This document shows positions 8,698 to 47,562 of a stretch of 56,371 nucleotides of DNA, piece by piece. Every line of letters starts with the position of its first letter. Position 1 is the stretch's first letter. The translations under genes were made by a program, and so were the position numbers. Below the pieces are notes generated by a model. The model did not search any database, was not told the origin of the DNA, and saw only the letters and a list, made by a program, of their open reading frames with translations. The stretch spans positions 1 through 56,371 of the forward strand of contig JAMIFL010000128.1 in NCBI GenBank assembly GCA_035906295.1, given 5' to 3'. This DNA comes from Alphaproteobacteria bacterium. Lineage in GTDB: Bacteria; Pseudomonadota; Alphaproteobacteria; Micavibrionales; UBA1664.

Positions 8698-8726
8698 AAA
8701 AATCCCCGCAATTGCGGGGATTTTTT
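8696..8726. terminator. Bidirectional terminator between yidC and the DUF3800-like gene
   Basis: AAAAAATCCCCGCAATTGCGGGGATTTTTT, a perfect palindrome with flanking A and T runs. Confidence 0.75.
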
Positions 8727-9471
8727 ATGACATCATTCGGCGCATTTGGATGCGCCATTTGTGAATAAAGGAGCTTATTTCTTGTTCATGAAGCGAGAAA
8801 AACAGAACGTTGGTTCTGTTCCTAAGGTCAATAAAGTGAGGATTTTCTGGGTTTTTCTTAGCATCAATCAGATATAGGCCATACCTGTAAGCCTCATACG
8901 CAACAGTATCAGCTGCTTGTAAACATGCTTGTGCTTCTACTGCAGAAAATTTCAGATTTATTCTTCCCATCATTTCTGGTGAAACAATTTTATTAGCTGT
9001 GATTATAGAGTTGGTAGCAATGTCCTGAGCCCCTTGATCAAAATGACACCATATTGGCTCGTCAATTTGGGCCAGTATTTTAAAAATATGATCAAAGACT
9101 CCCGCGAAAGCCATGTTTTTGGCTTCTCCAAGAAATCTTTTTTCAACTGGAGTAAGCACTCTATTCCAATCTTCTACAGCAACAATACATGCGAAACAGA
9201 CGACTCCAGATTCTACTATTGCCGTTCGGAATTTATAACGCAGTAAATCGCACTCTCCTTGATTGTAATCGATAAAATCGCCTTTTTTTGCAGCTAAATT
9301 GGCCAAATGAAACTGACGCAAAATTTTCTTATGCGGTAACGGATCTGCTAAGAGTTTTTTCCAGCTTTTCTCTAATTCTTCGAACTCCGCTTTTTCACCA
9401 ATGACACCACCCCACACCGCTATCTTGGAGTCGGAGTGCGTGCCACTATCGTCGAAGTAACATTCAATCAT
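8725..9471 (-). CDS. DUF3800-like protein (248 aa), AT-rich foreign-looking gene
   Basis: N-terminal [12 protein letters not shown] (DUF3800-type D-[DE]-S-G) and [13 protein letters not shown] (QxxD-type motif). Hand counts of two 60-nt lines give roughly 30-37% G+C, against about 70% in one adjacent acs line. Confidence 0.75.
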
Positions 9472-14285: not shown

Positions 14286-17200
14286 TCAGTCACGCCCGTA
14301 GTCGACGACGATTTCCCTGACCACCGGCGCGGCGTTGGCCCAGGTGACGATGGGGTTCGGGATTTCGCCCCTTGTCGCCCACGAGCCGTAAAGGGCGGAG
14401 TGGTAGACGCGGGTCGGGTAGGACCATGTGCCTTCGGTGTAGCTCTTGCCCTTCCACTCACGCGTGATGGCCTCGGTGATGGTGGTGGTGGTCATGTAGG
14501 ACAGGGTCCGGCAGCCGCCTTTACCGCCGCAGGAGACGTAGAAGACCTGAAGCGGCCATGCGATGGCGGTTTCTTCGTTCCGGCCGCAATAGAGGTCTTT
14601 CCAGAAGCCGTTCTGGCGGACAATCAGCTTGGTATTGTCCTCGATCTGCGGGCGGTGGGCGAGCAGGACGCCGTTGCGGTTGAGGATGGTGGTCTGGACG
14701 ACCGTGCCTTCCTTGCCGCTGTCGACCTTCTTGAACTCAAGGGTGACATTGCCGTCCTTGGTTTCTTTTTTGAACATGGTCTTGCACAGCTCGTTCACGC
14801 CCGGGAGGTAATTGAACATGCCCGGGTTGTTGTAGTGCTGGGTGCAGATTTTCTCGAAGGATTTCTGTTCCGAGAAATTGAGCGAGTTGCCGGACGAGGT
14901 GCACAGGGCGTCGTTGAGTTTCTGCACCTCGGCGCGTTCCGCGTCGGTGAGGTCGCGGCCCATGCCGATTTCGGCTTTCTTCTTGGCTTTGTCCAGATCT
15001 TCCTCGGCCTTGTCGGTTTCGGCCTTGGCGGTTTCGTAGACGCCTTTCTTCTGGTCGTAGACCGCCTGCGCGTTGTCACGCGTGGTGCGGGCCGCGTTCA
15101 GCTCGTTCTGACGGGCGGTCAGTTCGTTGCCGCGGGCGACCATCTGGTTGTAATAGGAATTGGCCGTGCTTTGCATGCTGTTGGCATAAGAAGCCGCAGA
15201 CGCGTAGGCCGACCAGGCGGCGTTGATCTGCGCCGAGGTGGAGTTCGAGTCTGCCGCCACGGCGGCGTAGGAAGAGTAGGCCGCGCTCGCCGAATAGGCA
15301 GCGGAGTTCGCCAAGCTTTGGTAATAAGAGTAGTTGGACGAGGCCGAATTATAGGCAGACTGGGCCGCGCTGACCGCAGACTGGGCGTTGGTCACGGCCT
15401 GTTTGGCCGCGTCCAGCGTGGGTTTATAGGCGTCCATCAACTGTTTCTTCTGATCGGACACTTCTTTTTTATCGTTGTATTTTTTAGCCTTCTTGATCTT
15501 GTCGTTGCTGGCGTCCAACTGGAACTGGATGTCACCGCACACATCGGAGCGGATCTGCTGGGCGGCAGCGGAAATCAGGATGCTGTTCGCGGGAACCGCG
15601 GGCTGGTTGGTCCACGACTTGATGAAGGCGTCCTTGCCGGGGCCGCGGAATTCCCACCATTTATCGCAGCCCTTGATGTTGCAGCTTTTCCACAGCAGGC
15701 CCGCTTCGGAGGTGTAGAAGCGCTGTTCCCATTTGTCGTGGGGGTATTTGTCCCGGTCGACGGTCTGGTAGTAGACCTTGCCGGTGGTGGTGCCGTCCCA
15801 CGGGATGCCGGGGTTCAGGGCCACGGGCAGGCCGGCGTACTTGGTGGCGACCATGTATTTATCGCTCGCGCCCCATTTGCCGGCGGTGATGGTTTCGGGT
15901 TTCCAGTCACCCTGACGGGTGGAATCGTAGTTGAAGGGGCAGTTGACCCACAGCGTGCGCGTGTACCACGTGCAGATGTTTTCTGTGATTTTCCACGGCG
16001 TGGTGGGCGTGGGCAGCGGCTTGAAGGTGAACTTGTCATCCCACGTGATGGCTTCCATGCCGCGCCAGGTGGTGACGTGCGAGTTCTGGACCTGTTCGGT
16101 GCCGGTGAAATAATCGAAGTTCAGGTAATCCCAGTAGCCGCCGACGACGGAGACGCAGTCGGAGAACAGGCAGAGGTTGAAGACGTGGGCGAACCAGTCT
16201 TCATCGACGAACCAGCCGTCGACGAGGTTACGCGACCATTTTTCGGTGGATTTCTGAGGTTTTTCATCGGGCGCGTTCGGGACCTTGCCGCAGGCGACGC
16301 GGTGCGTTTCATCGCCGGAGCAGTTGATGGTTTCGCCGATCCAGACCTTGCGCTTGCCGACGCCGTCGGTGCCGGTGTCGTTGGTAACGGAGCTGTTGTC
16401 GACGACGCGGACCAGCGTGGCGTGGCCGTCATACCATGTGATGGTGGAGCGACCGAGCTTGTCATCCAGCAGGTTCTTGAAGCGGATGCGCATGGTGATG
16501 TCGGCGCCCGCGCATTCGAGGCGGCGGGTGTCGGTCTGGTTGTCCTCGTTCCTGTCCTTGGTGCCTTCCTGGCCGGTGGAACGGGCATTCAGGGAGCAGG
16601 TGTCGATGTTCTTCTTGCGGGCTTCCTCGGCGTTCTTGGATTTTTTAACGTCGACCTTGGTGCAGTCCATCTGGAGCTGTTCGTTCAGGATGCGGCGCAG
16701 GGAGGTAGCGGCGAAGTTGTTGAGGTTGGCCGTGCCGGCGCCTTCCTGCAGGTCGTAGCCGGAGGTGGCGATGACGATGTCGTCGACGCAGGCGCCGACG
16801 CTTTCGGAGCCGCTTTCACCGCCCCAGCCCGCGTTGGGGTTGGCGGGGTCCCACGTACCGTCGGGACGGTAGGTGACCTTACGCTGCTGCACCATGGTGC
16901 CGCGCTTGTTGTTGGTGCAGGGCACGGTGCGGTATTCGATGCGCGCCATTTCGGTGGTGGGCGCGGCGGGACGGTCGATGGTGAAGACGATGACGGGGGC
17001 GCCCACGGGAATGGCGCTGCCGCTGCAGGATGCCGGCAGGGCGGTGGGGGTGGCGGTGGCGCCGTCCTTGAGCATGGCGATGCCGCCGTTGCGGTAGGTG
17101 CCGATGAGGTCGCCGGACGTGCGGTCACGCAGGAAGCCCACGATGGTGGCGGAATCGGTGCCCATGCCGCGGACGTTGAAGCGGCCCGCGGTGTCGCGCC

Positions 17201-17534
17201 CGTCAATCCACGAAATCTGGCGGACCTGCGAGCCGGAACCGGTGGGGCAGATCATGGTGCGCATGGGCGCGCCCATGGTGTCGGTGTTGATGCCCATGGA
17301 GGCGAGGTTGAGGACGCCGCCGGTGGTGGCGGTAAACCATGTGGGGCTGGTGATGATGGCCTGCTGGACCTGAACGGCCACGTTGGCGAGGCTGTTGGCG
17401 TAATATTCACCCGTGACGCGGCCAGCGGCGTTGGGGTTGTTTTTCACCGGGTCGGTCGAGTCCGGCAAACAGGCGGACAGCGCCAGCGTGGCGCCCAGAA
17501 CCATCAGTGAAAGACATTTGCGAATATTGACCAT
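14286..17534 (-). CDS. Large lipoprotein (1082 aa), unknown function
   Basis: Lipobox in MVNIRKCLSLMVLGATLALSAC|LPD. Diverse composition rich in Cys, Trp, Tyr, Asn and Thr. Central coiled-coil and Ser/Ala/Tyr low-complexity segment. The opposite-strand 1086-aa ORF is G/A/V/D-rich shadow. Confidence 0.8.
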   Translation of the reverse strand: MVNIRKCLSLMVLGATLALSACLPDSTDPVKNNPNAAGRVTGEYYANSLANVAVQVQQAIITSPTWFTATTGGVLNLASMGINTDTMGAPMRTMICPTGSGSQVRQISWIDGRDTAGRFNVRGMGTDSATIVGFLRDRTSGDLIGTYRNGGIAMLKDGATATPTALPASCSGSAIPVGAPVIVFTIDRPAAPTTEMARIEYRTVPCTNNKRGTMVQQRKVTYRPDGTWDPANPNAGWGGESGSESVGACVDDIVIATSGYDLQEGAGTANLNNFAATSLRRILNEQLQMDCTKVDVKKSKNAEEARKKNIDTCSLNARSTGQEGTKDRNEDNQTDTRRLECAGADITMRIRFKNLLDDKLGRSTITWYDGHATLVRVVDNSSVTNDTGTDGVGKRKVWIGETINCSGDETHRVACGKVPNAPDEKPQKSTEKWSRNLVDGWFVDEDWFAHVFNLCLFSDCVSVVGGYWDYLNFDYFTGTEQVQNSHVTTWRGMEAITWDDKFTFKPLPTPTTPWKITENICTWYTRTLWVNCPFNYDSTRQGDWKPETITAGKWGASDKYMVATKYAGLPVALNPGIPWDGTTTGKVYYQTVDRDKYPHDKWEQRFYTSEAGLLWKSCNIKGCDKWWEFRGPGKDAFIKSWTNQPAVPANSILISAAAQQIRSDVCGDIQFQLDASNDKIKKAKKYNDKKEVSDQKKQLMDAYKPTLDAAKQAVTNAQSAVSAAQSAYNSASSNYSYYQSLANSAAYSASAAYSSYAAVAADSNSTSAQINAAWSAYASAASYANSMQSTANSYYNQMVARGNELTARQNELNAARTTRDNAQAVYDQKKGVYETAKAETDKAEEDLDKAKKKAEIGMGRDLTDAERAEVQKLNDALCTSSGNSLNFSEQKSFEKICTQHYNNPGMFNYLPGVNELCKTMFKKETKDGNVTLEFKKVDSGKEGTVVQTTILNRNGVLLAHRPQIEDNTKLIVRQNGFWKDLYCGRNEETAIAWPLQVFYVSCGGKGGCRTLSYMTTTTITEAITREWKGKSYTEGTWSYPTRVYHSALYGSWATRGEIPNPIVTWANAAPVVREIVVDYGRD

Positions 17535-19466: not shown

Positions 19467-19988
19467 TTACTGAAATTCCCAGAGCATGGTGTTCTCGGTC
19501 GCGGCGGTGCAGGCGGCGGTCATACCGGCGGTGGTGAAAGTGGTTACGGCGGTGCCGTTGACGGTGAGCGAGGTTAAATCGGCGTCGTTCTGGAAGGTAA
19601 ACACCTCACCCAGCTTGATGCAGGCGGCCCGGGGGACCAGGGTGAACTGGACCGCGTAATGGCCGTTGGCGAGGCCGTCGGCGCGCACGGGGCCGAAGAC
19701 GCCGCGCAGCGTGTCGGCGGTGGGGCGGCCCATGTCGGCGGGGGTGGCCTTGACCACGTCCATGATTTCCAAAAGCGTGCCCACGGGGTAGCCGGGCTGG
19801 TTGTTGAAGGCCTGCTTGATCATCTGCTTCAGGGTGGTGAGCTGGCGCATGCCCTGATTGCGGTTATTGACGTCGGACACGAGGCGGTATGCGGCGGCGC
19901 CCGAAAGAATGAGCACGGCGCCGACGGAGACGACGAGCAGCAGTTCGAGCAGTGAAAAACCGCGCTTACGCGATGCAGAGATAGTCAA
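19467..19988 (-). CDS. Prepilin-type N-terminal cleavage/methylation domain protein (type IV pilin or pseudopilin-like, 173 aa)
   Basis: Start placed at in-frame TTG 19986-19988: (M)TISASRKRG|FSLLELLLVVSVGAVLIL, the class III signal G-F-x-L-x-E. Two C-terminal Cys. The longer ORF to 20180 would overlap accC. Confidence 0.7.
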   Translation of the reverse strand: MTISASRKRGFSLLELLLVVSVGAVLILSGAAAYRLVSDVNNRNQGMRQLTTLKQMIKQAFNNQPGYPVGTLLEIMDVVKATPADMGRPTADTLRGVFGPVRADGLANGHYAVQFTLVPRAACIKLGEVFTFQNDADLTSLTVNGTAVTTFTTAGMTAACTAATENTMLWEFQ

Positions 19989-20068
19989 AGCCCGTTCCCC
20001 CCGGTTGATAGGCCGAGGGGATATAATAGCAGATTCAAGGCTGTGCTGCCCAGTGCCGGTATGCCCGT

Positions 20069-21442
<1,374 letters not shown>

Positions 21443-27207: not shown

Positions 27208-28704
27208 TCAGGCGGCGGACATTTTTTTGATGGTGGCCGTCGTCGAGAAGCCTTCTTCCAGCGGGATGAGGGCGACGCGGCCACCGTAGGCCTGCACCAC
27301 GCCTGCGCCTACCACGGTATCGACGGTGTAGTCGGCGCCCTTGAACAGCAGGTCGGGGCGCAGGGCGGTTATGAGGTCGAGCGGCGTGTCGTTTTCAGCC
27401 ACGTTTTCGCCGAAGAGGACGACGGCGTCGATGGAGCCGAGCGCCGCGACGACGCGGGCGCGCGCGTCATGGTCGTTCACGGGCCGGGTGGGGCCTTTGA
27501 GGCGGCGGACGGACGCATCGCAGTTGATGCCGAGGATGAGGCGGTCGCATTCGGCGCGGGCGCGGGCGAGCATGGTGACGTGGCCCTGATGGAGAATATC
27601 GAAGCAGCCGTTGGTGAAGCCGACCTTAAGCCCCCTCGCCTGCCAGCGTTCGGCCTGTTCGCGGGCCTGCGCCCATGTGAGGACGGGGGCGATGGTGGTG
27701 GCGGTTGCGCTTTCGGCCAGCGCCATGCGCAAATCATCCGCCGTGATGGCGGCGGTGCCGATTTTTTCGACGACGAGACCGGCGGCGATGTTGGCGAGGG
27801 TTGCGGCGGTTTGCAAATCGGCCCCCGCCGAGGCTGCGGCGGCGAGCGTGGCGATGACGGTATCGCCCGCGCCGGACACGTCGAACACTTCGCGCGCGCG
27901 GGTGCGCAGGTGGGTTGCGCCCTGCCCGTTCTGCACCAGCGTCATGCCATCGGCGGAACGGGTGGCGAGGATTGCGGCGATGCCGCACGTATCGAGCAGC
28001 GATTGCGCGGCGGCGGCGACATCTTCATCCGTCGCGGTGGGTTTGTTTTCAGTTGCTTCCGCCAGTTCGCGGCGGTTGGGCGTGACCACGGCGGCGCCGC
28101 GGTAGCGGGTGTAGTCGCGGCCCTTGGGGTCGACATACACGGGCAGGTTCAGCACCATGAGGGCGGAGAGCAGCGCGGGGGTTACGACGCCCTTGCCGTA
28201 GTCGGACACGATGATGCCGTGGCAGCCGGAGGCCGCGCGGGTGCAGGCGGCGATGAGGGCGGATTCGGTTTCAGGCGCGAGGGGGCCCGCGGTTTCATCG
28301 TCCACGCGCAGGAGGTGGTGGGCGCCCGCGACGAAGCGGTCTTTCTGGGTGGTGGGGCGGGTGGCGTCGGTCACGATATGGGGGGTGACGCCGGGCATGG
28401 CGGCGAGCACGGCATCGAGTTCGGCGCGGGCAGAGTCGCGACCGGCGACCGTGACCAGCGCGGTTTCAACGCCGAGGCCAGCAAGGTTGGCGGCGACGTT
28501 GCCGACGCCGCCCGCGGTTACGGTACGGCGGGTGACGGACAGAACGGGGACCGGCGCCTCGGGGCTTAGCCTTGTGACATCGCCGTAGGTGAAGCGGTCG
28601 AGCATGACGTCACCTATTAACAAGAGGCGGCGGGTCGTTAACTTTTGGAGCAAATCCATGAAATTCGGGGCTTCCTGCATAGGCATTCGATAGGCCAAAA
28701 ACAA
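27208..28704 (-). CDS. hldE: Bifunctional D-beta-D-heptose 7-phosphate kinase / D-beta-D-heptose 1-phosphate adenylyltransferase
   Basis: Kinase N-terminus LLIGDVMLDRFTYG. Cytidylyltransferase motif GFTNGCFDILHQGHV. The real start may be ATG 28659 (MDLLQKL...). Confidence 0.9.
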   Translation of the reverse strand: MFLAYRMPMQEAPNFMDLLQKLTTRRLLLIGDVMLDRFTYGDVTRLSPEAPVPVLSVTRRTVTAGGVGNVAANLAGLGVETALVTVAGRDSARAELDAVLAAMPGVTPHIVTDATRPTTQKDRFVAGAHHLLRVDDETAGPLAPETESALIAACTRAASGCHGIIVSDYGKGVVTPALLSALMVLNLPVYVDPKGRDYTRYRGAAVVTPNRRELAEATENKPTATDEDVAAAAQSLLDTCGIAAILATRSADGMTLVQNGQGATHLRTRAREVFDVSGAGDTVIATLAAAASAGADLQTAATLANIAAGLVVEKIGTAAITADDLRMALAESATATTIAPVLTWAQAREQAERWQARGLKVGFTNGCFDILHQGHVTMLARARAECDRLILGINCDASVRRLKGPTRPVNDHDARARVVAALGSIDAVVLFGENVAENDTPLDLITALRPDLLFKGADYTVDTVVGAGVVQAYGGRVALIPLEEGFSTTATIKKMSAA

Positions 28705-28874
28705 AAAAAACGCAAGGAAACTGCCGTTTTTTGATGAATTACATAAAATCTGCGGTGATTTTCATAAATTGGTAAATCCGTTTTCGTAGACTGGGGCTAT
28801 CGAAAGGTTGCGGCTCGAGGAATTCCAAGGGCAAGCGGCGGAAAACAGAAGATAGCAGAGTGGTGTAAAAAAAC

Positions 28875-29789
28875 ATGCTGAACGCTGAAACGACGAAAAT
28901 GGGTGTGCTGGCTTCCTTCAAGGCGCAACTCGACCGCAACCGCCTCGGTGACCTGCTGGTCAATAACGGGCAGATTACCGACCTGCAGCTTTCCGATGCC
29001 CTGCGCATCCAGAAAATGTCGGGCCTCGCGCTTGGTGAAGTGTTGCGCGAACAGGGCCTGATTTCGGGCGGCGACCTTCGCGTGACCCTGGCCCAGCAGA
29101 TGGCATGGCGCGGCATGGCGGCGGCTTTGGCCTTCGTCATCGGGTTCTCGGCGCTCGGCATTCATTCGGCCCGCGCTACGTCGGCCATGGAAACCGGCGG
29201 TATCAGCCGCCCCGAAATTTCCCAGCAGGTGCAGCCTGCCGCGGTCAACCGCCGCGACATTCCGGCCCCGGCCAACCAGTACCCGGCGCTGTTCGGGACC
29301 GCGGAAGTGCGTTCCGCCGATATTTCACCGTTCACCAAATGGACGGGCGTGATGGCCCGCCTGAACGACCGCACCGCGCCGATGCCGCAAAACCTGGCCG
29401 CGATGGCGGGGCAGAGCGAGCAGGACATGATCCGCGCGGTCAACGCCCACTACAACAAGGTCCGTTACATCGAAGACAAGAACAACTGGGGCACCAGCGA
29501 TTACTGGGAGACGCCGGTCGAGTTCACCAGCCGCGGCGGGGATTGCGAAGATTTCGCCATCGCCAAGTATGCCGCGCTTAAAAACCTCGGCTTCACGGAA
29601 GACCAGATGCGCATCGCCATCGTGCGCGATACGTGGAAGGGCATTCCGCACGCCATCCTCATCGTTTATACCGCCGATGGCGCCAAGTTCCTCGACAACC
29701 AGTACAAGGAAGTCAAGAACGTCGCCGGGTTCGACCGCTACGCCCCGGTGTATTCCATCAACCGCACCGGCTGGTGGCGCCACGTTTAA
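28875..29789 (+). CDS. MshEN-like (c-di-GMP-binding motif) - TM - BTLCP/LapG-like transglutaminase-fold cysteine protease fusion
   Basis: aa 23-46 RLGDLLVNNGQITDLQLSDALRIQ and aa 52-75 ALGEVLREQGLISGGDLRVTLAQQ. TM at aa 78-97. GGDCEDFAIAKY, PHAILIV and LDNQ give a Cys-His-Asp triad. Confidence 0.85.
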   Translation: MLNAETTKMGVLASFKAQLDRNRLGDLLVNNGQITDLQLSDALRIQKMSGLALGEVLREQGLISGGDLRVTLAQQMAWRGMAAALAFVIGFSALGIHSARATSAMETGGISRPEISQQVQPAAVNRRDIPAPANQYPALFGTAEVRSADISPFTKWTGVMARLNDRTAPMPQNLAAMAGQSEQDMIRAVNAHYNKVRYIEDKNNWGTSDYWETPVEFTSRGGDCEDFAIAKYAALKNLGFTEDQMRIAIVRDTWKGIPHAILIVYTADGAKFLDNQYKEVKNVAGFDRYAPVYSINRTGWWRHV

Positions 29790-44568: not shown

Positions 44569-47562
44569 TCAGGCGACCGAGGGTCGCGCGGTCGGCAGGC
44601 GGGACTGGGGGACGCCCAACTGCATGCATTTCTTCTTGGCGGAGAAGGACATGCGGGTGGCGATGTCGGGCCGGGCGCGGGCGATTTTGGCCTGCGCGGC
44701 GGTCAGGGTCTGGAGAATCAGCGGTTCGGTCCATTTGAAGCGGGAGCCTTGTTCGACCGCGTTCAAGGCCAGCGTGGAGCCGCGGTTCTGTTCGAGGACG
44801 ATGAGCAGTTCGGCCTCGCGCGGGGTGAAGGTGATTTTGAGATTGCCGCATTTGAGCATGCCGCCCTCGCCTTCCTGCAAATCGAAATCGGTGGCGGGTT
44901 CGGCGGCGGGGGTTTCAGCGGCCAAGGCAGCCGAATGGCGCAAAGGCGTAAGCGCCCAGACATAGGCGCTGGCGCCATGGCGGCTGAAGGGCAGCACGAC
45001 ATCAGGGCAGTGGATGGCCCAGCGTTTTTCGACACGCTCGGCCATGCCTTTCACGTTCGCGATTTTGAGCCTGCGTTGCAGTTCATCGACGAAGAGGCCG
45101 CGGGGGTATTGTTCGGCCAGCAGGGTGAAGAGTTCGGTTTCCTGCGTGGAGAGGGCGAAGTCGGCGCCCTGTACCTTTGCGGCGCCGGTGGAGGGCGAGC
45201 GCAGGAGGACGAGGCCGCCGGTGAGTTCGACTTCCTCCGGCGTTTCGGCCGGTTCGGCAGCGCGGCGCTGGGCGGGCGCGGCACGGGGTGCGGGCGCTTC
45301 CTCCTCTATCACGTCGCCGTCGCGCAGCCATGCGAAGCCGCGGCCGCGCAGGGTGCGGAGTTTTTCGCCCCATTCGGTGGCGTGGAAATTGAGAATGCTG
45401 CGCAACTGGTTGACCGCGTGGGTCAGTTGGGCGGGGACGAAATTGCCGTCGCCGAAGACCTGGCGGTACAGGTCGGCGGACGACAGGGGCGCCGCCGTGT
45501 CGAGCTGTTCGCGGTGGGTATGCAGGGCGCGCAGGATTTTGACCTGCGGGGGCGTGAGGTCCTGATTTCGTTCATCGATGACGCCGCCGCCGGTTTCGGG
45601 GTCCACCTTCAGGGTGAAGCCGTCAAGCGGGTGGACGTCCCAGTTGATGACGCGCTGGGGCAGGTCCTGCTTCACGGTTTTAGGGGTGGGGGCCGCCTCG
45701 CCCGGCATGAGGCTGGCGTAGCCGTGGCCGTGGATGACGGCGAGCGCGTGCGCCCATTCCGGATTGATGCCGGTGAGGATGGAGCGCAGCTTGACCACGT
45801 CCTGCGAGATTTTCTGCTGCACGTAGGGGCGTGCGGGATAGACGCGTTCGAACATGTCGCGGTGGCTGACGATGGCGGGGCCTTCCTCGGTGCGCGCGGC
45901 GTGGGCCGCGGTGAGGATGGCGACCTGATAGGGGCGCAGGTCGACGGTGTGGCCTTCGATCATGCCGGTTTTCAGCGTGGGGTGGACGAGGACGGCGAAG
46001 TGGCCGAAATCATGCCGGTCCAGCGTTACTTCCGTGCCGGAGGCGCGGGCGAGGCGTTCGCGCATCAGGCCCTGCACGCGTTCCTTCGTTTCGGCGCGGG
46101 TGGTTTCGGGATCGGGGACTTCCTCGGCAGCGCCGTAGCTGACATAGGTGTCGTGGTAGATGTGGATGTTGGTGTCGGTTTCGCCCGCCTGTTCGAGTTT
46201 GCGGTACAAAGCGCGGGCGAGTTCGACGATATCCTCATCCGGCGATTTGTCGCCGCGCACGGGGTGGCTTTCGCCGCGGACCTGGCGGTAGAGCGAGTGG
46301 CCGCGCACGGCCTGCCCTTCGACCTGCACGAGTTGTTCGAGCAGGCGCAGTTCGGCTGTCGAGAACGCGATTTCGGTGCCGGTGAGCATGTAGCTGTTGG
46401 CGTTGTTGACGCGCAGGAACTGGTGCGGGCCCACGACCTTCACTTCCTGACGCAACTGCATGCTGAAGGTGCTGGCGTCGAAGACTTCGGGGTCGAAATA
46501 ATCGGGGTTGAGGGAGATGCGTTCATCTTCCGGGTCGACCATCAGCGCGGGGCCGCGGGCGACGAGGTAGCCGGAGAGAATGCTGTTGAGGGTATCCAGC
46601 GTTTCCTGATTGGACATCAGGAAATTGTCTTTCTGGGAGAGCGGGCGGCTCATGCGGTCGTGCAGGTATTCGAACATTTCGAACTGCGCATCGGTGATGG
46701 TGAGCGCGGTATCGGCCACGGCGTAGCCGCCGCCTTCCAGCGGGTCCAGGCGCAGCATGCCGCGGTGGACACGGTTCTCGGGCATGTCTTTGAGCATGTA
46801 ATAGCCGTCGCCCCATGACGTGCGCAGCAGGTCGAAGCCGAGGCCGGGGACACGCGCGTTGATTTTGCCGCGCACCTTGGTCATGAAGACGTCGATAATC
46901 TTGATTTCGGGTTCTTCCTCATCAAGGCCGTACATGCTTTTGAGGATCTGTTCCTTGGTGCGGACCTTGCCGCGCGCCCGCGCGAGGTAGGTGAGCACGC
47001 TGCGTTCGTGCGGCGTCAGCGGAATGCGGGCGCCATTGGCCGCCACCTCTCCGGTGCCGAGATCAATGGTCAGCGGACCCATGGAGAGGACGGCGCTGGC
47101 GCCAACGTTGCGGTTGACCGCGCGCGCGATTTTCAGCGGCAGCAGGGCCGGTTCGTTGGTCTGGTCGACGACGGTGGCGAAACCGGCGGAGAGGAGGTTG
47201 AATTCAACCTTGGGGCCCGGCGTGTCGACGTAGGCCACCAGCGGCATGTCGCCCGCGTTGTCGACGATGTCGCGGAGTTTCTTGAAATAAGGGTGGTTGC
47301 GCGCGTCGTGTTCGACCAGGTCGGCGTTGGGGACGACGAGGACCGCGTCGAAACCATCACCATCGCGGCGCAGGGTGGCGGCGAGTTCGTCGAGCGATTC
47401 AACGCCGAATTCCTCGTGCGCGAACGTGGCTGACCAGGGGATATTGCCGTAGTCGGCTTCAAGAAGCTTGAGGCGGCCGGGCAGTTCTTCGATGAGGTAG
47501 TCGCGGAATTCGCGGTCGGATTTCTTGGATTCGTCGGTATCGACGTAAATCAGCGTACGCAC
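44569..47562 (-). CDS. Multi-winged-helix (OmpR/PhoB-type) protein with degenerate receiver-like N-terminus (997 aa)
   Basis: GTG start 47560-47562 after AGGTGA. aa 158-258 is a canonical OmpR-type wHTH (PLTPHERSVLTYLARARGKVRTKEQIL...IIDVFMTKVRGKI...GDGYYM). About six more wHTH-like repeats follow. Confidence 0.85.
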   Translation of the reverse strand: MRTLIYVDTDESKKSDREFRDYLIEELPGRLKLLEADYGNIPWSATFAHEEFGVESLDELAATLRRDGDGFDAVLVVPNADLVEHDARNHPYFKKLRDIVDNAGDMPLVAYVDTPGPKVEFNLLSAGFATVVDQTNEPALLPLKIARAVNRNVGASAVLSMGPLTIDLGTGEVAANGARIPLTPHERSVLTYLARARGKVRTKEQILKSMYGLDEEEPEIKIIDVFMTKVRGKINARVPGLGFDLLRTSWGDGYYMLKDMPENRVHRGMLRLDPLEGGGYAVADTALTITDAQFEMFEYLHDRMSRPLSQKDNFLMSNQETLDTLNSILSGYLVARGPALMVDPEDERISLNPDYFDPEVFDASTFSMQLRQEVKVVGPHQFLRVNNANSYMLTGTEIAFSTAELRLLEQLVQVEGQAVRGHSLYRQVRGESHPVRGDKSPDEDIVELARALYRKLEQAGETDTNIHIYHDTYVSYGAAEEVPDPETTRAETKERVQGLMRERLARASGTEVTLDRHDFGHFAVLVHPTLKTGMIEGHTVDLRPYQVAILTAAHAARTEEGPAIVSHRDMFERVYPARPYVQQKISQDVVKLRSILTGINPEWAHALAVIHGHGYASLMPGEAAPTPKTVKQDLPQRVINWDVHPLDGFTLKVDPETGGGVIDERNQDLTPPQVKILRALHTHREQLDTAAPLSSADLYRQVFGDGNFVPAQLTHAVNQLRSILNFHATEWGEKLRTLRGRGFAWLRDGDVIEEEAPAPRAAPAQRRAAEPAETPEEVELTGGLVLLRSPSTGAAKVQGADFALSTQETELFTLLAEQYPRGLFVDELQRRLKIANVKGMAERVEKRWAIHCPDVVLPFSRHGASAYVWALTPLRHSAALAAETPAAEPATDFDLQEGEGGMLKCGNLKITFTPREAELLIVLEQNRGSTLALNAVEQGSRFKWTEPLILQTLTAAQAKIARARPDIATRMSFSAKKKCMQLGVPQSRLPTARPSVA

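What the first reader, a model, noticed from the sequence alone, without database searches (positions are those of the whole stretch)
28875..29789. Possible one-component c-di-GMP inside-out switch: tandem MshEN motif - TM helix - LapG/BTLCP protease in one polypeptide
Residues 23-46 (RLGDLLVNNGQITDLQLSDALRIQ) and 52-75 (ALGEVLREQGLISGGDLRVTLAQQ) each fit the 24-residue MshEN c-di-GMP-binding motif RLGxx(L/V/I)(L/V/I)xxG(L/V/I)(L/V/I)xxxxLxxxLxxQ. Deviations are Q33 in the first, and A52 and R58 in the second. They are separated by exactly five residues (KMSGL), the tandem spacing described for Vibrio MshE. One hydrophobic span follows (aa 78-97). The C-terminal domain carries the BTLCP/LapG hallmarks GGDCEDFAIAKY (Cys224 with flanking acidic Ca-site-like residues), PHAILIV (His259) and LDNQ (Asp274). 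In the Pseudomonas Lap paradigm, the cytoplasmic c-di-GMP sensor (LapD) and the periplasmic protease (LapG) are separate proteins. Here a c-di-GMP-receptor-like module and the protease are fused with a predicted in/out topology. No GGDEF/EAL, T1SS or LapA-like adhesin gene is in the window, so the substrate is unknown. SARA|TS after the TM could alternatively be a signal-peptidase site that releases the protease.
Basis: partly seen in the sequence, partly recalled or inferred. Interest (0 to 1): 0.8.

Follow-up and report, generated by a model that had tools for sequence, protein, structure and literature searches.

The report
c-di-GMP sensor fused to exported protease
One 304-residue protein joins a cytoplasmic module predicted to bind the second messenger c-di-GMP, through a signal-peptide-like membrane segment, to a LapG-like periplasmic cysteine protease; this layout is conserved in predatory Micavibrio-type bacteria and was not found described in the papers searched, and it may be a one-protein version of the two-protein Lap biofilm switch.

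Summary
ORF 28875-29789 (+) encodes 304 aa.

- **Sensor module.** Residues 23-75 match NCBIfam's 53-residue MshE-type c-di-GMP-binding model over its full length (50.1 bits, cutoff 38). In the model they superpose on the V. cholerae MshE structure solved with c-di-GMP (5HTL) at 0.7 Å.
- **Protease module.** Residues 136-304 are a BTLCP/Peptidase_C93 domain. The Cys224-His259-Asp274 triad and the Ca-site D-C-E are invariant in 79 aligned homologues.
- **Conservation.** The fusion is not an artefact. 113 of the 120 best homologue clusters carry it, as do about 34 GTDB species, almost all Micavibrio or unclassified alphaproteobacterial MAGs and including cultured M. aeruginosavorus. All are annotated only as "transglutaminase-like cysteine peptidase".
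The "TM helix" has signal-peptide anatomy: an invariant Arg79, an uncharged 17-19-residue core, and a conserved A-x-A at 99-101. Close unfused relatives carry an ordinary signal peptide ending in ASA|TS at the same position. The periplasmic linker is disordered and varies from 16 to 55 residues. Allosteric transmission to the protease is therefore unlikely. I favour c-di-GMP control of tethering versus release or export.
- **Limits.** It is a BTLCP but not a LapG orthologue (91 bits against a cutoff of 320). No LapD, T1SS or adhesin gene is nearby, so the substrate is unknown.

Verdict: a new variant of a known kind, with moderately high interest.

The parts
28875..29789 (+). Whole gene: 304-aa MshEN_N / signal-peptide-like segment / BTLCP protein (stop codon included)
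   Evidence: ORF and translation. 113 of the 120 best homologue clusters have the same architecture.
28941..29012 (+). MshEN motif 1, aa 23-46 (RLGDLLVNNGQITDLQLSDALRIQ)
   Evidence: NF053729 profile positions 1-24. In 79 homologues: R23 76/79, L24 78/79, G25, L39 and L43 79/79, Q46 78/79.
29013..29027 (+). Five-residue spacer, aa 47-51 (KMSGL)
   Evidence: Length 5 in 79/79 homologues and in 33 of 34 genome loci; 7 in M. aeruginosavorus HCB189.
29028..29099 (+). MshEN motif 2, aa 52-75 (ALGEVLREQGLISGGDLRVTLAQQ)
   Evidence: NF053729 profile positions 30-53. G54 and Q75 are invariant, L53 74/79, L72 75/79, and L68 is L/I/V in 79/79. Position 1 is A/P/T/Q/N rather than R.
29100..29111 (+). Fixed junction, aa 76-79 (MAWR), ending in invariant Arg79, the n-region charge at the membrane interface
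   Evidence: R79 79/79 in A1. Exactly 3 residues lie between Q75 and R79 in 79/79. AF2 predicts one continuous helix over aa 65-93.
29112..29168 (+). Hydrophobic h-region / membrane span, aa 80-98
   Evidence: Kyte-Doolittle peak 1.76. No charged residue in aa 80-95 in 78/79. 19 residues between R79 and the -3 Ala in 70/79.
29169..29177 (+). A-x-A (ARA, aa 99-101): putative signal peptidase I site, with cleavage predicted after Ala101
   Evidence: Position -3 is A69/S8/G1 and position -1 is A77/S1 of 79. Unfused relatives P0064/67/83/84 have a classical signal peptide ending in ASA|TS at the homologous place.
29178..29279 (+). Disordered, variable periplasmic linker, aa 102-135
   Evidence: pLDDT 44-48. 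Length 16-55, median 32. Mean pairwise identity 0.19.
29280..29786 (+). BTLCP / Peptidase_C93 domain, aa 136-304
   Evidence: Pfam PF06035 E=2e-21. Foldseek to LapG 4FGP/4FGO/4U65 E about 2e-10, target-normalised TM 0.62-0.65. pLDDT 93-98 over most of the domain (block means 76-98).
29541..29552 (+). D223-C224-E225-D226: catalytic Cys flanked by the acidic Ca-binding residues
   Evidence: Invariant in 79/79. Aligns with GDCEDY/F of the LapG structures. The equivalent D316/E318 and C317 are required in DvhG (PMC13090378).
29649..29651 (+). Catalytic His259
   Evidence: Invariant. Aligned to the LapG His.
29694..29696 (+). Catalytic Asp274
   Evidence: Invariant. Aligned to the LapG Asp.
27208..28704 (-). 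Divergently transcribed hldE (PfkB + CTP_transf_like; ADP-heptose synthesis). Conserved neighbour; a functional link is unproven.
   Evidence: Pfam assignments on the syntenic loci. The divergent neighbour is present in 35 of 37 loci at a median distance of 162 nt.
28705..28874 (.). 170-nt A+T-rich intergenic region shared with hldE; presumed promoters
   Evidence: Sequence. No conserved CtrA box.

Best explanation
**What it is.** This is a single-polypeptide, c-di-GMP-responsive exported protease.

**Shown by sequence and structure comparison.**
- A 53-residue MshEN_N four-helix module lies at aa 23-75.
- Through a junction of fixed length, it runs straight into a hydrophobic segment with all the features of a Sec signal peptide: Arg79, an uncharged core, and A-x-A at 99-101.
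- A disordered linker follows, then a Ca-dependent BTLCP cysteine-protease domain with an intact Cys-His-Asp triad.

**Inferred.**
- The MshEN_N module stays in the cytoplasm and binds one c-di-GMP.
- The protease domain is translocated to the periplasm.
- The sensor's last helix (L68, L72, Q75) is continuous with the membrane segment. The register from Gly25 to Arg79 never varies (79/79), and it continues unchanged to Ala101 in 70 of 79. The linker beyond it is floppy.
- c-di-GMP therefore most likely does not act allosterically on the active site. It more likely decides the fate of the signal-like segment: retained as an inner-membrane anchor, or exported and cut at A-x-A by signal peptidase I.
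- That would switch the protease between an inner-membrane-tethered, sequestered state and a free periplasmic state.

**By analogy only.** In the Lap system, high c-di-GMP means sequestration and low c-di-GMP means release and cleavage of an envelope substrate. The same direction is assumed here.

**Unknown.** The substrate is not identified. Candidates are an adhesin or a surface-polysaccharide component relevant to attachment in Micavibrio-type epibiotic predators.
For: **Sensor.**
- NF053729 scores 50.1 bits against a cutoff of 38 over the full 53 positions.
- All 79 aligned homologues match it.
- PDB sequence hits to MshE and PilF.
- The AF2 model (pLDDT 96 over aa 30-70) superposes on 5HTL_B at 0.7 Å over 55 columns, 45% identity.
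- Wang et al. found Gly at motif position 3 and the Leu triads to be critical for binding. These are invariant or nearly so here: G25, G54, L39 and L43 at 79/79, L24 78, L53 74, L72 75. Changing the Arg or Gln residues altered affinity less than 5-fold (PMC5013675).
- The module is under purifying selection: mean identity 0.48, against 0.19 for the linker.

**Protease.**; the Ca motif as in DvhG and LapG.

**Signal-peptide nature of the membrane segment.**
- A-x-A conservation, constant spacing and an uncharged core.
- Four unfused 235-aa relatives (55-58% identical) start with MKT...KK, a hydrophobic core and ASA|TS. They are real genes in another genomic context, and their nearest non-self relatives are fused members.

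**Floppy linker.**

**Conservation of the whole architecture.**

**Precedents.**
- MshEN_N-Peptidase_M23 is listed by Wang et al..
- DvhG is a membrane-anchored BTLCP with a long disordered linker.
- Other MshEN_N-TM-exported-domain proteins exist.
Against: - No binding, topology or processing data exist.
- Motif 2 lacks the canonical Arg at position 1 (A52; the family has A/P/T/Q/N) and has R58 at a hydrophobic position. M. aeruginosavorus has a 7-residue spacer and an Arg in place of the motif-2 Gly at position 10. Affinity could therefore be low or lost in some lineages.
- No GGDEF/EAL gene is in the window. Only 1 of 37 related loci has a GGDEF gene nearby. Whether these genomes make c-di-GMP at all was not established.
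- I know of no precedent for a second messenger controlling signal-peptide processing in cis.
- A 19-residue uncharged stretch could also serve as a permanent anchor.
- The direction of regulation is pure analogy.
Confidence: 0.5

Rival explanations
1. This is the literal one-component inside-out switch proposed by the first reader. The hydrophobic segment is a permanent signal anchor. c-di-GMP binding changes helix orientation or drives oligomerisation through the membrane, and this directly activates or inhibits the tethered protease. It could do so by clustering, or by restricting the protease's reach to a substrate at the outer membrane.
For: - The sensor helix is continuous with the membrane helix, and the Q75-x3-R79 junction is invariant.
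- The uncharged span of 17-19 residues is long enough to cross the membrane.
- DvhG shows that a BTLCP can work while membrane-anchored through a disordered linker.
- Many other MshEN_N-TM-extracytoplasmic proteins exist.
Against: - The linker is disordered and of variable length (16-55 residues, 19% identity), so it cannot carry a conformational signal.
- The conserved A-x-A and a helix-breaking G/N about 6-7 residues upstream are unexplained by a plain anchor.
- Homologous unfused enzymes use the same segment as a cleavable signal peptide.
Confidence: 0.2
2. The N-terminal module is an MshEN_N-derived fold that no longer senses c-di-GMP. It would serve instead as a protein-interaction or localisation domain, for example docking to a pilus or secretion platform or at a cell pole. 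Alternatively it simply lengthens the signal peptide's n-region. The protease would then be a constitutively exported BTLCP comparable to HvyA or LapG.
For: - The second motif is degenerate: A52, R58, and family position 1 is never predominantly Arg.
- M. aeruginosavorus departs further, with a 7-residue spacer and Gly-to-Arg at motif-2 position 10.
- Wang et al. note that some MshEN domains, such as XpsE, have lost binding.
- No c-di-GMP enzymes are in the window.
- Pfam T2SSE_N does not hit.
Against: - The residues conserved best are precisely the ligand-contacting Gly and Leu residues and the terminal Gln of each motif.
- The XpsE-type disabling changes (G11V, G40L, L54H, L58C, Q61V) are absent.
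- The curated c-di-GMP-motif model is passed by the window protein (50.1 vs 38 bits), and all 79 aligned members match it at E<=1e-3.
- Arg and Gln changes cost less than 5-fold in affinity.
Confidence: 0.22
3. The architecture is an annotation or assembly artefact: a wrong start codon, or a chimeric MAG contig joining two genes.
For: The window comes from a metagenome-type contig. A few database relatives have mis-called starts, such as P0031 and P0032.
Against: - The reading frame is open and continuous.
- The same full-length architecture occurs in 113 of 120 homologue clusters from independent assemblies.
- It also occurs in complete genomes, including cultured M. aeruginosavorus HCB189 and MAG chromosomes.
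- There are no indels in the Gly25-Arg79 unit in 79/79, and the register continues to Ala101 in 70 of 79.
Confidence: 0.01

Closest known systems
LapD/LapG system of Pseudomonas fluorescens and its orthologues in Legionella and Vibrio
   Same: A Ca-dependent periplasmic BTLCP protease placed under a cytoplasmic c-di-GMP receptor. The fold, the Cys-His-Asp triad and the D-C-E Ca motif are shared.
   Different: - In Lap, the receptor (LapD: HAMP plus degenerate GGDEF-EAL, with a periplasmic LapD/MoxY domain) and the protease are separate proteins, and control is by sequestration on a LapD tryptophan. Here the receptor is an MshEN_N module on the same chain, with no periplasmic receptor domain.
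- The protease is not a LapG equivalog (91.5 bits against 320).
- No LapD, LapBCE T1SS or LapA-like adhesin gene is nearby.
DvhG/DvhD of Desulfovibrio vulgaris (PMC13090378)
   Same: A BTLCP that carries an N-terminal membrane segment and a long disordered linker and is still c-di-GMP-regulated. This shows the Lap logic tolerates other receptor types and a tethered protease.
   Different: - DvhG has no cytoplasmic sensor of its own. c-di-GMP is read by a separate HD-GYP/dCache protein, DvhD.
- DvhG sits in an adhesin/T1SS operon.
- Most DvhG orthologues have plain signal peptides.
MshEN domain of V. cholerae MshE, T. thermophilus PilF and E. coli NfrB (PMC5013675)
   Same: Two 24-residue motifs separated by 5 residues, the Gly and Leu ligand contacts, and the four-helix fold (0.7 Å to 5HTL).
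   Different: - Here only the MshEN_N half is present. There is no MshEN_C/T2SSE_N1 and no Pfam T2SSE_N hit.
- The output is an exported protease rather than a cytoplasmic ATPase or glycosyltransferase.
- Motif 2 lacks the Arg.
- The nearest listed architecture is MshEN_N-Peptidase_M23 in Acaryochloris (Supplementary Table 4). BTLCP is not listed there.
HvyA of Caulobacter crescentus and alphaproteobacterial BTLCPs (PMC4241560)
   Same: A periplasmic BTLCP from an alphaproteobacterium with a Sec signal, not tied to a Lap operon. It acts on an envelope or capsule target and requires the catalytic triad.
   Different: - HvyA has a plain signal sequence and is controlled by cell-cycle transcription and proteolysis, not by a fused sensor.
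- It lies in a capsule locus. Here the conserved neighbour is hldE.
- No conserved CtrA box is present (5 of 34 loci).

Membership tests
MshEN_N c-di-GMP-binding domain (Wang et al. 2016) | [quoted passage not shown] | tested here: met
   aa 23-46 and 52-75 with spacer KMSGL. Three deviations: Q33, A52, R58. Spacer of 5 in 79/79 homologues.
MshEN_N c-di-GMP-binding domain (Wang et al. 2016) | Profile match above a curated threshold | tested here: met
   NF053729 scores 50.1 bits against cutoff 38, profile positions 1-53 of 53. 79 of 79 family members match.
MshEN_N c-di-GMP-binding domain (Wang et al. 2016) | Ligand-critical Gly at position 3 and the six Leu of the two hydrophobic triads | tested here: met
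   G25, G54, L39 and L43 invariant; L24 78/79, L53 74/79, L68 L/I/V 79/79, L72 75/79. Their importance is documented.
MshEN_N c-di-GMP-binding domain (Wang et al. 2016) | Arg at position 1 of both motifs | tested here: not met
   R23 is present (76/79). Motif 2 has A52, and the family has A19/P18/T15/Q12/N8. Wang's relaxed motif allows R/K/P/N, and Arg changes cost less than 5-fold in affinity.
MshEN_N c-di-GMP-binding domain (Wang et al. 2016) | Four-helix fold superposable on MshEN bound to c-di-GMP | tested here: met
   AF2 helices at 24-30, 36-49, 53-59 and 65 onward. Foldseek 5HTL_B: rmsd 0.7 Å over 55 columns, 45% identity, probability 1.00.
MshEN_N c-di-GMP-binding domain (Wang et al. 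2016) | Binds c-di-GMP with nM to low-µM affinity | not testable with these tools
   Needs ITC, DRaCALA or DSF on the purified domain.
BTLCP / Peptidase_C93 (Pfam PF06035) | Profile match above the gathering score | tested here: met
   76.8 bits against 27, E=2e-21.
BTLCP / Peptidase_C93 (Pfam PF06035) | Cys-His-Asp catalytic triad in register | tested here: met
   C224, H259 and D274 align with the LapG triad and are invariant in 79 homologues.
BTLCP / Peptidase_C93 (Pfam PF06035) | Transglutaminase-like / papain-like fold as in the LapG structures | tested here: met
   Foldseek 4FGP/4FGQ/4FGO/4U65 E=2-6e-10, target-normalised TM 0.62-0.65.
BTLCP / Peptidase_C93 (Pfam PF06035) | Export to the periplasm by an N-terminal Sec signal | tested here: inconclusive
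   A signal-peptide-like segment with A-x-A is present, but it is preceded by 79 residues. No SignalP or topology experiment was available.
LapG proper (Lap system protease) | NCBIfam equivalog NF045674 at or above its cutoff | tested here: not met
   91.5 bits against cutoff 320. The best E-value among the 79 family members is 3.4e-33, far short of the cutoff.
LapG proper (Lap system protease) | Ca-binding acidic residues flanking the catalytic Cys (D-C-E) | tested here: met
   D223-C224-E225-D226 invariant. The equivalent residues are needed in DvhG and LapG.
LapG proper (Lap system protease) | Encoded with, and controlled by, a LapD-type transmembrane c-di-GMP receptor | tested here: not met
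   No such gene within ±8-10 kb in the relatives' annotated loci or among the conserved neighbours of 37 loci, and none among the window ORFs scanned. Whole genomes could not be searched.
LapG proper (Lap system protease) | A LapA-like T1SS adhesin substrate with a retention module and a [T/A/P]AAG site | not testable with these tools
   None in the 56-kb window.
HvyA-type capsule-control BTLCP | Located in a capsule/CPS export locus and under CtrA/MucR control | tested here: not met
   The neighbours are hldE, dsbD, a CDF transporter, rsmB and PBP1A. A full CtrA box lies upstream in only 5 of 34 loci.

The most novel reading that the evidence does not exclude
c-di-GMP occupancy of a cytoplasmic MshEN_N module controls, in cis, whether the adjoining Sec signal peptide is processed or retained. 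This would make a one-protein Lap-like switch that releases or tethers a periplasmic protease. It would be the first case of a nucleotide second messenger gating signal-peptide processing or export of the protein that carries the sensor. In Micavibrio-type epibiotic predators it might govern attachment to, or release from, prey.
Probability: 0.2. Interest if true: 0.85.

Novelty: new variant of a known kind. Interest (0 to 1): 0.66.

Why it matters
- **A simpler version of a well-studied circuit.** The Lap circuit (c-di-GMP receptor, periplasmic BTLCP protease, surface protein release) is the best-understood inside-out signalling route in biofilm biology. It has so far always needed two proteins. 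A conserved single-chain version with a different receptor module (MshEN_N instead of degenerate GGDEF-EAL or HD-GYP) would show that c-di-GMP control of BTLCP proteases evolved at least a third time, in the simplest possible form.
- **A testable new mechanism.** The sensor abuts a signal-peptide-like segment, which raises a mechanism not yet described: messenger-dependent tethering or processing of an exported enzyme.
- **An annotation gap.** The Pfam scan run here saw only Peptidase_C93 in this protein, and database entries for its relatives are named only "transglutaminase-like cysteine peptidase". It also points to a wider, little-noticed class of MshEN_N-TM-exported-domain proteins.
- **An experimental handle.** The family occurs in cultured Micavibrio aeruginosavorus, an epibiotic predator of Pseudomonas aeruginosa. 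The predictions can therefore be tested there and may bear on how the predator attaches to prey.

Tried and rejected
1. **Self-release at a LapG-type site.** The window protein has PAAV (aa 121-124) in its linker, matching [T/A/P]AA[G/V]. Only 2 of 79 homologues have such a motif in the linker, so it is chance.
2. **HvyA-like CtrA control.** TTAA-N7-TTAA lies upstream in only 5 of 34 loci and not in the window. Rejected.
3. **An internal start at Met76 giving a plain signal-peptide isoform.** Column 76 is Met in only 13 of 79. Rejected.
4. **Word-indexed homology search with the N-terminal 106 aa alone.** It found a single hit. The index is too coarse for this short query. I replaced it with the exhaustive profile search, which gave 24,370 hits, mostly multi-copy MshEN_N proteins.
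5. **Looking up the window's own contig in the gene-position index.** Not on record.
6. **Conserved gene neighbourhood as a clue to the substrate.**
   - Only hldE is conserved across the whole family (35 of 37 loci).
   - The other shared neighbours look like lineage synteny: a D-Ala-D-Ala carboxypeptidase-like protein, pyruvate kinase, ClpA/ClpS, ribonucleotide reductase and two lipoproteins. These names are read from sequence and from the Pfam annotation of locus L006.
   - No T1SS, adhesin, LapD or capsule genes were found.
7. **Literature.** Searches for MshEN with LapG, transglutaminase, BTLCP, Peptidase_C93, MshEN_N, and Micavibrio with c-di-GMP or GGDEF gave no description of this fusion.
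8. **The LapG structure paper (PMC3416269).** Not held. I took the Ca-site residues from the DvhG paper instead.
Full report
**1. The observation**

- The deviations from the strict MshEN motif are exactly Q33, A52 and R58.

**2. Is it more than a pattern seen by eye?**

Yes, for both modules.
- NCBIfam's 53-position model of the MshE-type c-di-GMP-binding motif (NF053729) aligns end to end with aa 23-75 at 50.1 bits, E=1.7e-13. This is above its curated cutoff of 38.
- The same residues hit the NfrB and EpsG models, both proteins listed as MshEN-containing, through this region only.
- Against PDB sequences the N-terminus finds T. thermophilus PilF (1e-6) and V. cholerae MshE 5HTL (3e-6).
- Pfam places aa 178-285 in Peptidase_C93/BTLCP (76.8 bits against 27).
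- The LapG structures 4U65_E and 4FGO match at 9e-23 and 3e-16, with the catalytic Cys, His and Asp aligned.
- Pfam's T2SSE_N does not hit the N-terminus. In the Pfam scan the protein therefore shows only as a BTLCP, which matches the database names of its relatives.

**3. Structure**

An AlphaFold2 model built on 79 homologues has mean pLDDT 85.
- aa 24-75 form the helices of an MshEN_N bundle (pLDDT about 96).
- The last helix runs uninterrupted from residue 65 to residue 93, that is, from the second ligand-binding motif straight through the hydrophobic segment.
- Residues 97-125 are disordered (pLDDT 44-48).
- Residues 135-304 form a confident α/β domain.
- Foldseek against the PDB returns the LapG structures first (E about 2e-10, target-normalised TM 0.62-0.65).
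- For the small N-terminal module it returns 5HTL_B, MshE with c-di-GMP, at 0.7 Å rmsd over 55 columns and 45% identity.

**4. A conserved family, not a one-off**

- A search of 5.8 billion proteins gave 1,182 hits. The best 120 are about 300 aa, cover 97-100% of the query at 44-78% identity, and are named at most "transglutaminase-like cysteine peptidase".
- By motif test, 113 of these 120 carry the N-terminal module.
- All 79 aligned representatives match NF053729.
- In GTDB species genomes the full-length form was found in about 34 species. Nearly all are Micavibrio, "Pseudobdellovibrionaceae", or unclassified Alphaproteobacteria/Rhodospirillales MAGs.
- These include the complete genome of cultured Micavibrio aeruginosavorus HCB189 (NZ_CP195303.1).
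- BTLCPs from other Rhodospirillales, Desulfovibrio and similar taxa match only from about residue 130 onward.

**5. What is conserved**

*Invariant columns in the 79-sequence alignment*
- In the sensor and junction: G25, L39, L43, G54, Q75 and R79.
- In the protease: D223-C224-E225-D226, H259 and D274.
- Nearly invariant: R23, L24, L27, L28, G32, Q46, L53 and L72.

*Agreement with binding data*
- Wang et al. report that the Gly and Leu residues are what c-di-GMP binding depends on. Substituting any one of the conserved hydrophobic residues cost more than 10-fold in affinity, and G11L/G40I showed little or no binding.
- Changes to Arg9, Asp12 and Gln32 cost less than 5-fold (PMC5013675).
- The non-canonical first residue of motif 2 (A/P/T/Q/N across the family) is therefore a caveat, not a disqualification.
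- The changes that inactivate XpsE (G11V, G40L, L54H, L58C, Q61V) are absent.

*Conservation by region*

| Region | Mean pairwise identity |
|---|---|
| Sensor | 0.48 |
| Membrane segment | 0.39 |
| Linker | 0.19 |
| Protease | 0.59 |

**6. The membrane segment is a signal peptide by anatomy and ancestry**

*Anatomy in the fused family*
- After invariant Arg79 come 19 residues before a conserved small-x-small site. This spacing holds in 70 of 79 sequences.
- There is no charged residue in aa 80-95 in 78 of 79.
- Position -3 is A69/S8/G1 and position -1 is A77/S1.
- G/N/S is common about seven residues before the site.
- The same pattern holds in 34 genome loci.

*Unfused relatives*
- Four close relatives (P0064, P0067, P0083, P0084; 235 aa; 55-58% identical) lack the sensor altogether.
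- They begin MKT...KK, then a hydrophobic core, then ...TASA|TS. This is a textbook Sec/SPase I signal peptide whose cleavage motif aligns with SARA|TS here.
- They are genuine genes, lying 52 nt after the previous gene in a metal-resistance island.
- Their nearest non-self relatives are fused members of the window's subclade. They therefore look like secondary losses of the sensor.

*Register of the unit*
- The unit from Gly25 to Arg79 has no length variation in 79/79: spacer of 5, and a Q75-to-R79 gap of 3. The register continues to the A-x-A in 70 of 79.
- The linker that follows ranges from 16 to 55 residues.

**7. Consequences for mechanism**

- The N-in/C-out topology is well founded by inference. 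A nucleotide sensor must be cytoplasmic, BTLCPs are periplasmic, and the unfused relatives are exported by the same segment.
- A LapD-like conformational relay to the catalytic domain is unlikely across a floppy, variable linker.
- The conserved, rigidly registered part is sensor plus signal segment plus A-x-A.
- I therefore favour control at the level of that segment. c-di-GMP binding to a helix continuous with the h-region would decide whether the protein stays as an inner-membrane-anchored (sequestered) protease, or is processed at Ala101 and released into the periplasm.
- The direction (high c-di-GMP means retention) is borrowed from the Lap system and is inference only.
- Alternatives are set out as rivals: a permanent anchor with oligomerisation or localisation control, or a degenerate sensor used for docking.

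**8. What it is not**

*Not a LapG orthologue*
- It scores 91.5 bits against the equivalog cutoff of 320.
- No LapD- or DvhD-like receptor, T1SS or giant adhesin lies near it in the window or in 37 related loci.

*Neighbourhood*
- The only neighbour kept across the whole family is a divergently transcribed hldE (ADP-heptose synthesis), present in 35 of 37 loci about 160 nt away.
- That adjacency persists even though the rest of the neighbourhood differs between the window's lineage and Micavibrio. The window's lineage has dsbD, a CDF transporter, rsmB and PBP1A.
- This, together with the Caulobacter BTLCP HvyA that blocks capsule formation (PMC4241560), keeps an envelope-polysaccharide target as open as an adhesin target.

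*Ideas tested and dropped*
- A CtrA box like that of hvyA is not conserved.
- A LapG-type PAAV site in the protein's own linker is not conserved either.

**9. Comparison with the literature**

- Wang et al. list MshEN fusions to ATPases, glycosyltransferases, REC, CheA, CheX, cyclases and kinases, and list MshEN_N-Peptidase_M23. They do not list BTLCP.
- DvhG (2026) is a membrane-anchored BTLCP with a roughly 180-residue disordered linker. It is regulated by the separate HD-GYP receptor DvhD.
- No paper in the searchable library links MshEN to a BTLCP.
- The exhaustive profile search shows the N-terminal module belongs to a very large MshEN_N superfamily, with 24,370 hits.
- That search also surfaced other proteins in which MshEN_N repeats precede a membrane segment and exported domains (CAP, fn3/Big_7, β-helix, DUF4082). 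Cytoplasmic MshEN_N in front of exported domains may be a general theme that has drawn little notice.

**10. Verdict**

- It overreaches on the LapD-like mechanism and on the LapG label.
- This is a new variant of a known kind of system. It is conserved and carried by a culturable predator, and it offers a clear, cheap set of decisive experiments.
- Uncertainties that remain: c-di-GMP binding, whether the A-x-A is cut, the direction of control, the substrate, and the c-di-GMP enzyme complement of the carrier genomes.

Noticed in passing
P0139, P0146, P0152, P0168, P0188, P0192, P0193, P0234 (hits): This looks like a broader class of proteins. Two to three or more MshEN_N repeats are followed by a segment that matches the query's membrane span, and then by exported-type domains (CAP, fn3 + Big_7, right-handed β-helix/pectate-lyase-like, DUF4082). 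Several of about 365 aa have no recognised C-terminal domain. This suggests c-di-GMP modules are commonly placed in front of exported or surface domains.
   Followed up: partly
window 27208-28704 (-) and 28705-28874; loci L001, L004, L006-L040: hldE (heptose kinase/adenylyltransferase, LPS core) is divergently transcribed from the fused BTLCP gene in 35 of 37 loci. The adjacency holds across lineages whose other neighbours differ. It could reflect shared regulation or an envelope link, or simply stable synteny.
   Followed up: partly
L024 11074-11748, L035 11741-12400, L039 11109-11837 (all +): In three Micavibrio-type genomes a second, unfused BTLCP paralogue with an ordinary signal peptide lies immediately downstream of the fused gene.
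   Followed up: no
L018 12426-13463 (-): A 345-aa protein with an intact RYGGEEF diguanylate-cyclase motif lies about 1.5 kb downstream of the fused gene in one Micavibrio MAG, and in none of the other 36 loci. It shows that at least some carriers probably make c-di-GMP.
   Followed up: partly
L087 10001-10708 and surroundings: The unfused 235-aa relatives sit in an arsenic/copper/MerR-type metal-resistance island next to a P-type ATPase and lipoprotein signal peptidase. This is an unexpected context for a BTLCP.
   Followed up: no
window 14286-17534 (-): A 1082-aa predicted lipoprotein (lipobox LSAC) has a central Ala/Ser/Tyr-rich low-complexity coiled region and no Pfam match at all.
   Followed up: no
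window 44569-47562 (-): A 997-aa ORF whose only Pfam hit is an OmpR-type Trans_reg_C DNA-binding domain at residues 178-255. The rest is unassigned.
   Followed up: no
window 19467-20180 (-); L004 12991-13518 (-): PilS/N_methyl type IV pilin-like genes lie within about 4-10 kb of the fused gene, both in the window and in a 53%-identical relative's locus.
   Followed up: no
window 8725-9471 (-): A DUF3800 gene is wedged between yidC-like and acetyl-CoA synthetase genes.
   Followed up: no
L012 9953-10930 (+): The M. aeruginosavorus HCB189 orthologue is the outlier of the family. It has a 7-residue spacer between the motifs (KTSGASE) and an Arg in place of the motif-2 Gly at position 10. This bears on which orthologue to choose for binding assays.
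   Followed up: partly
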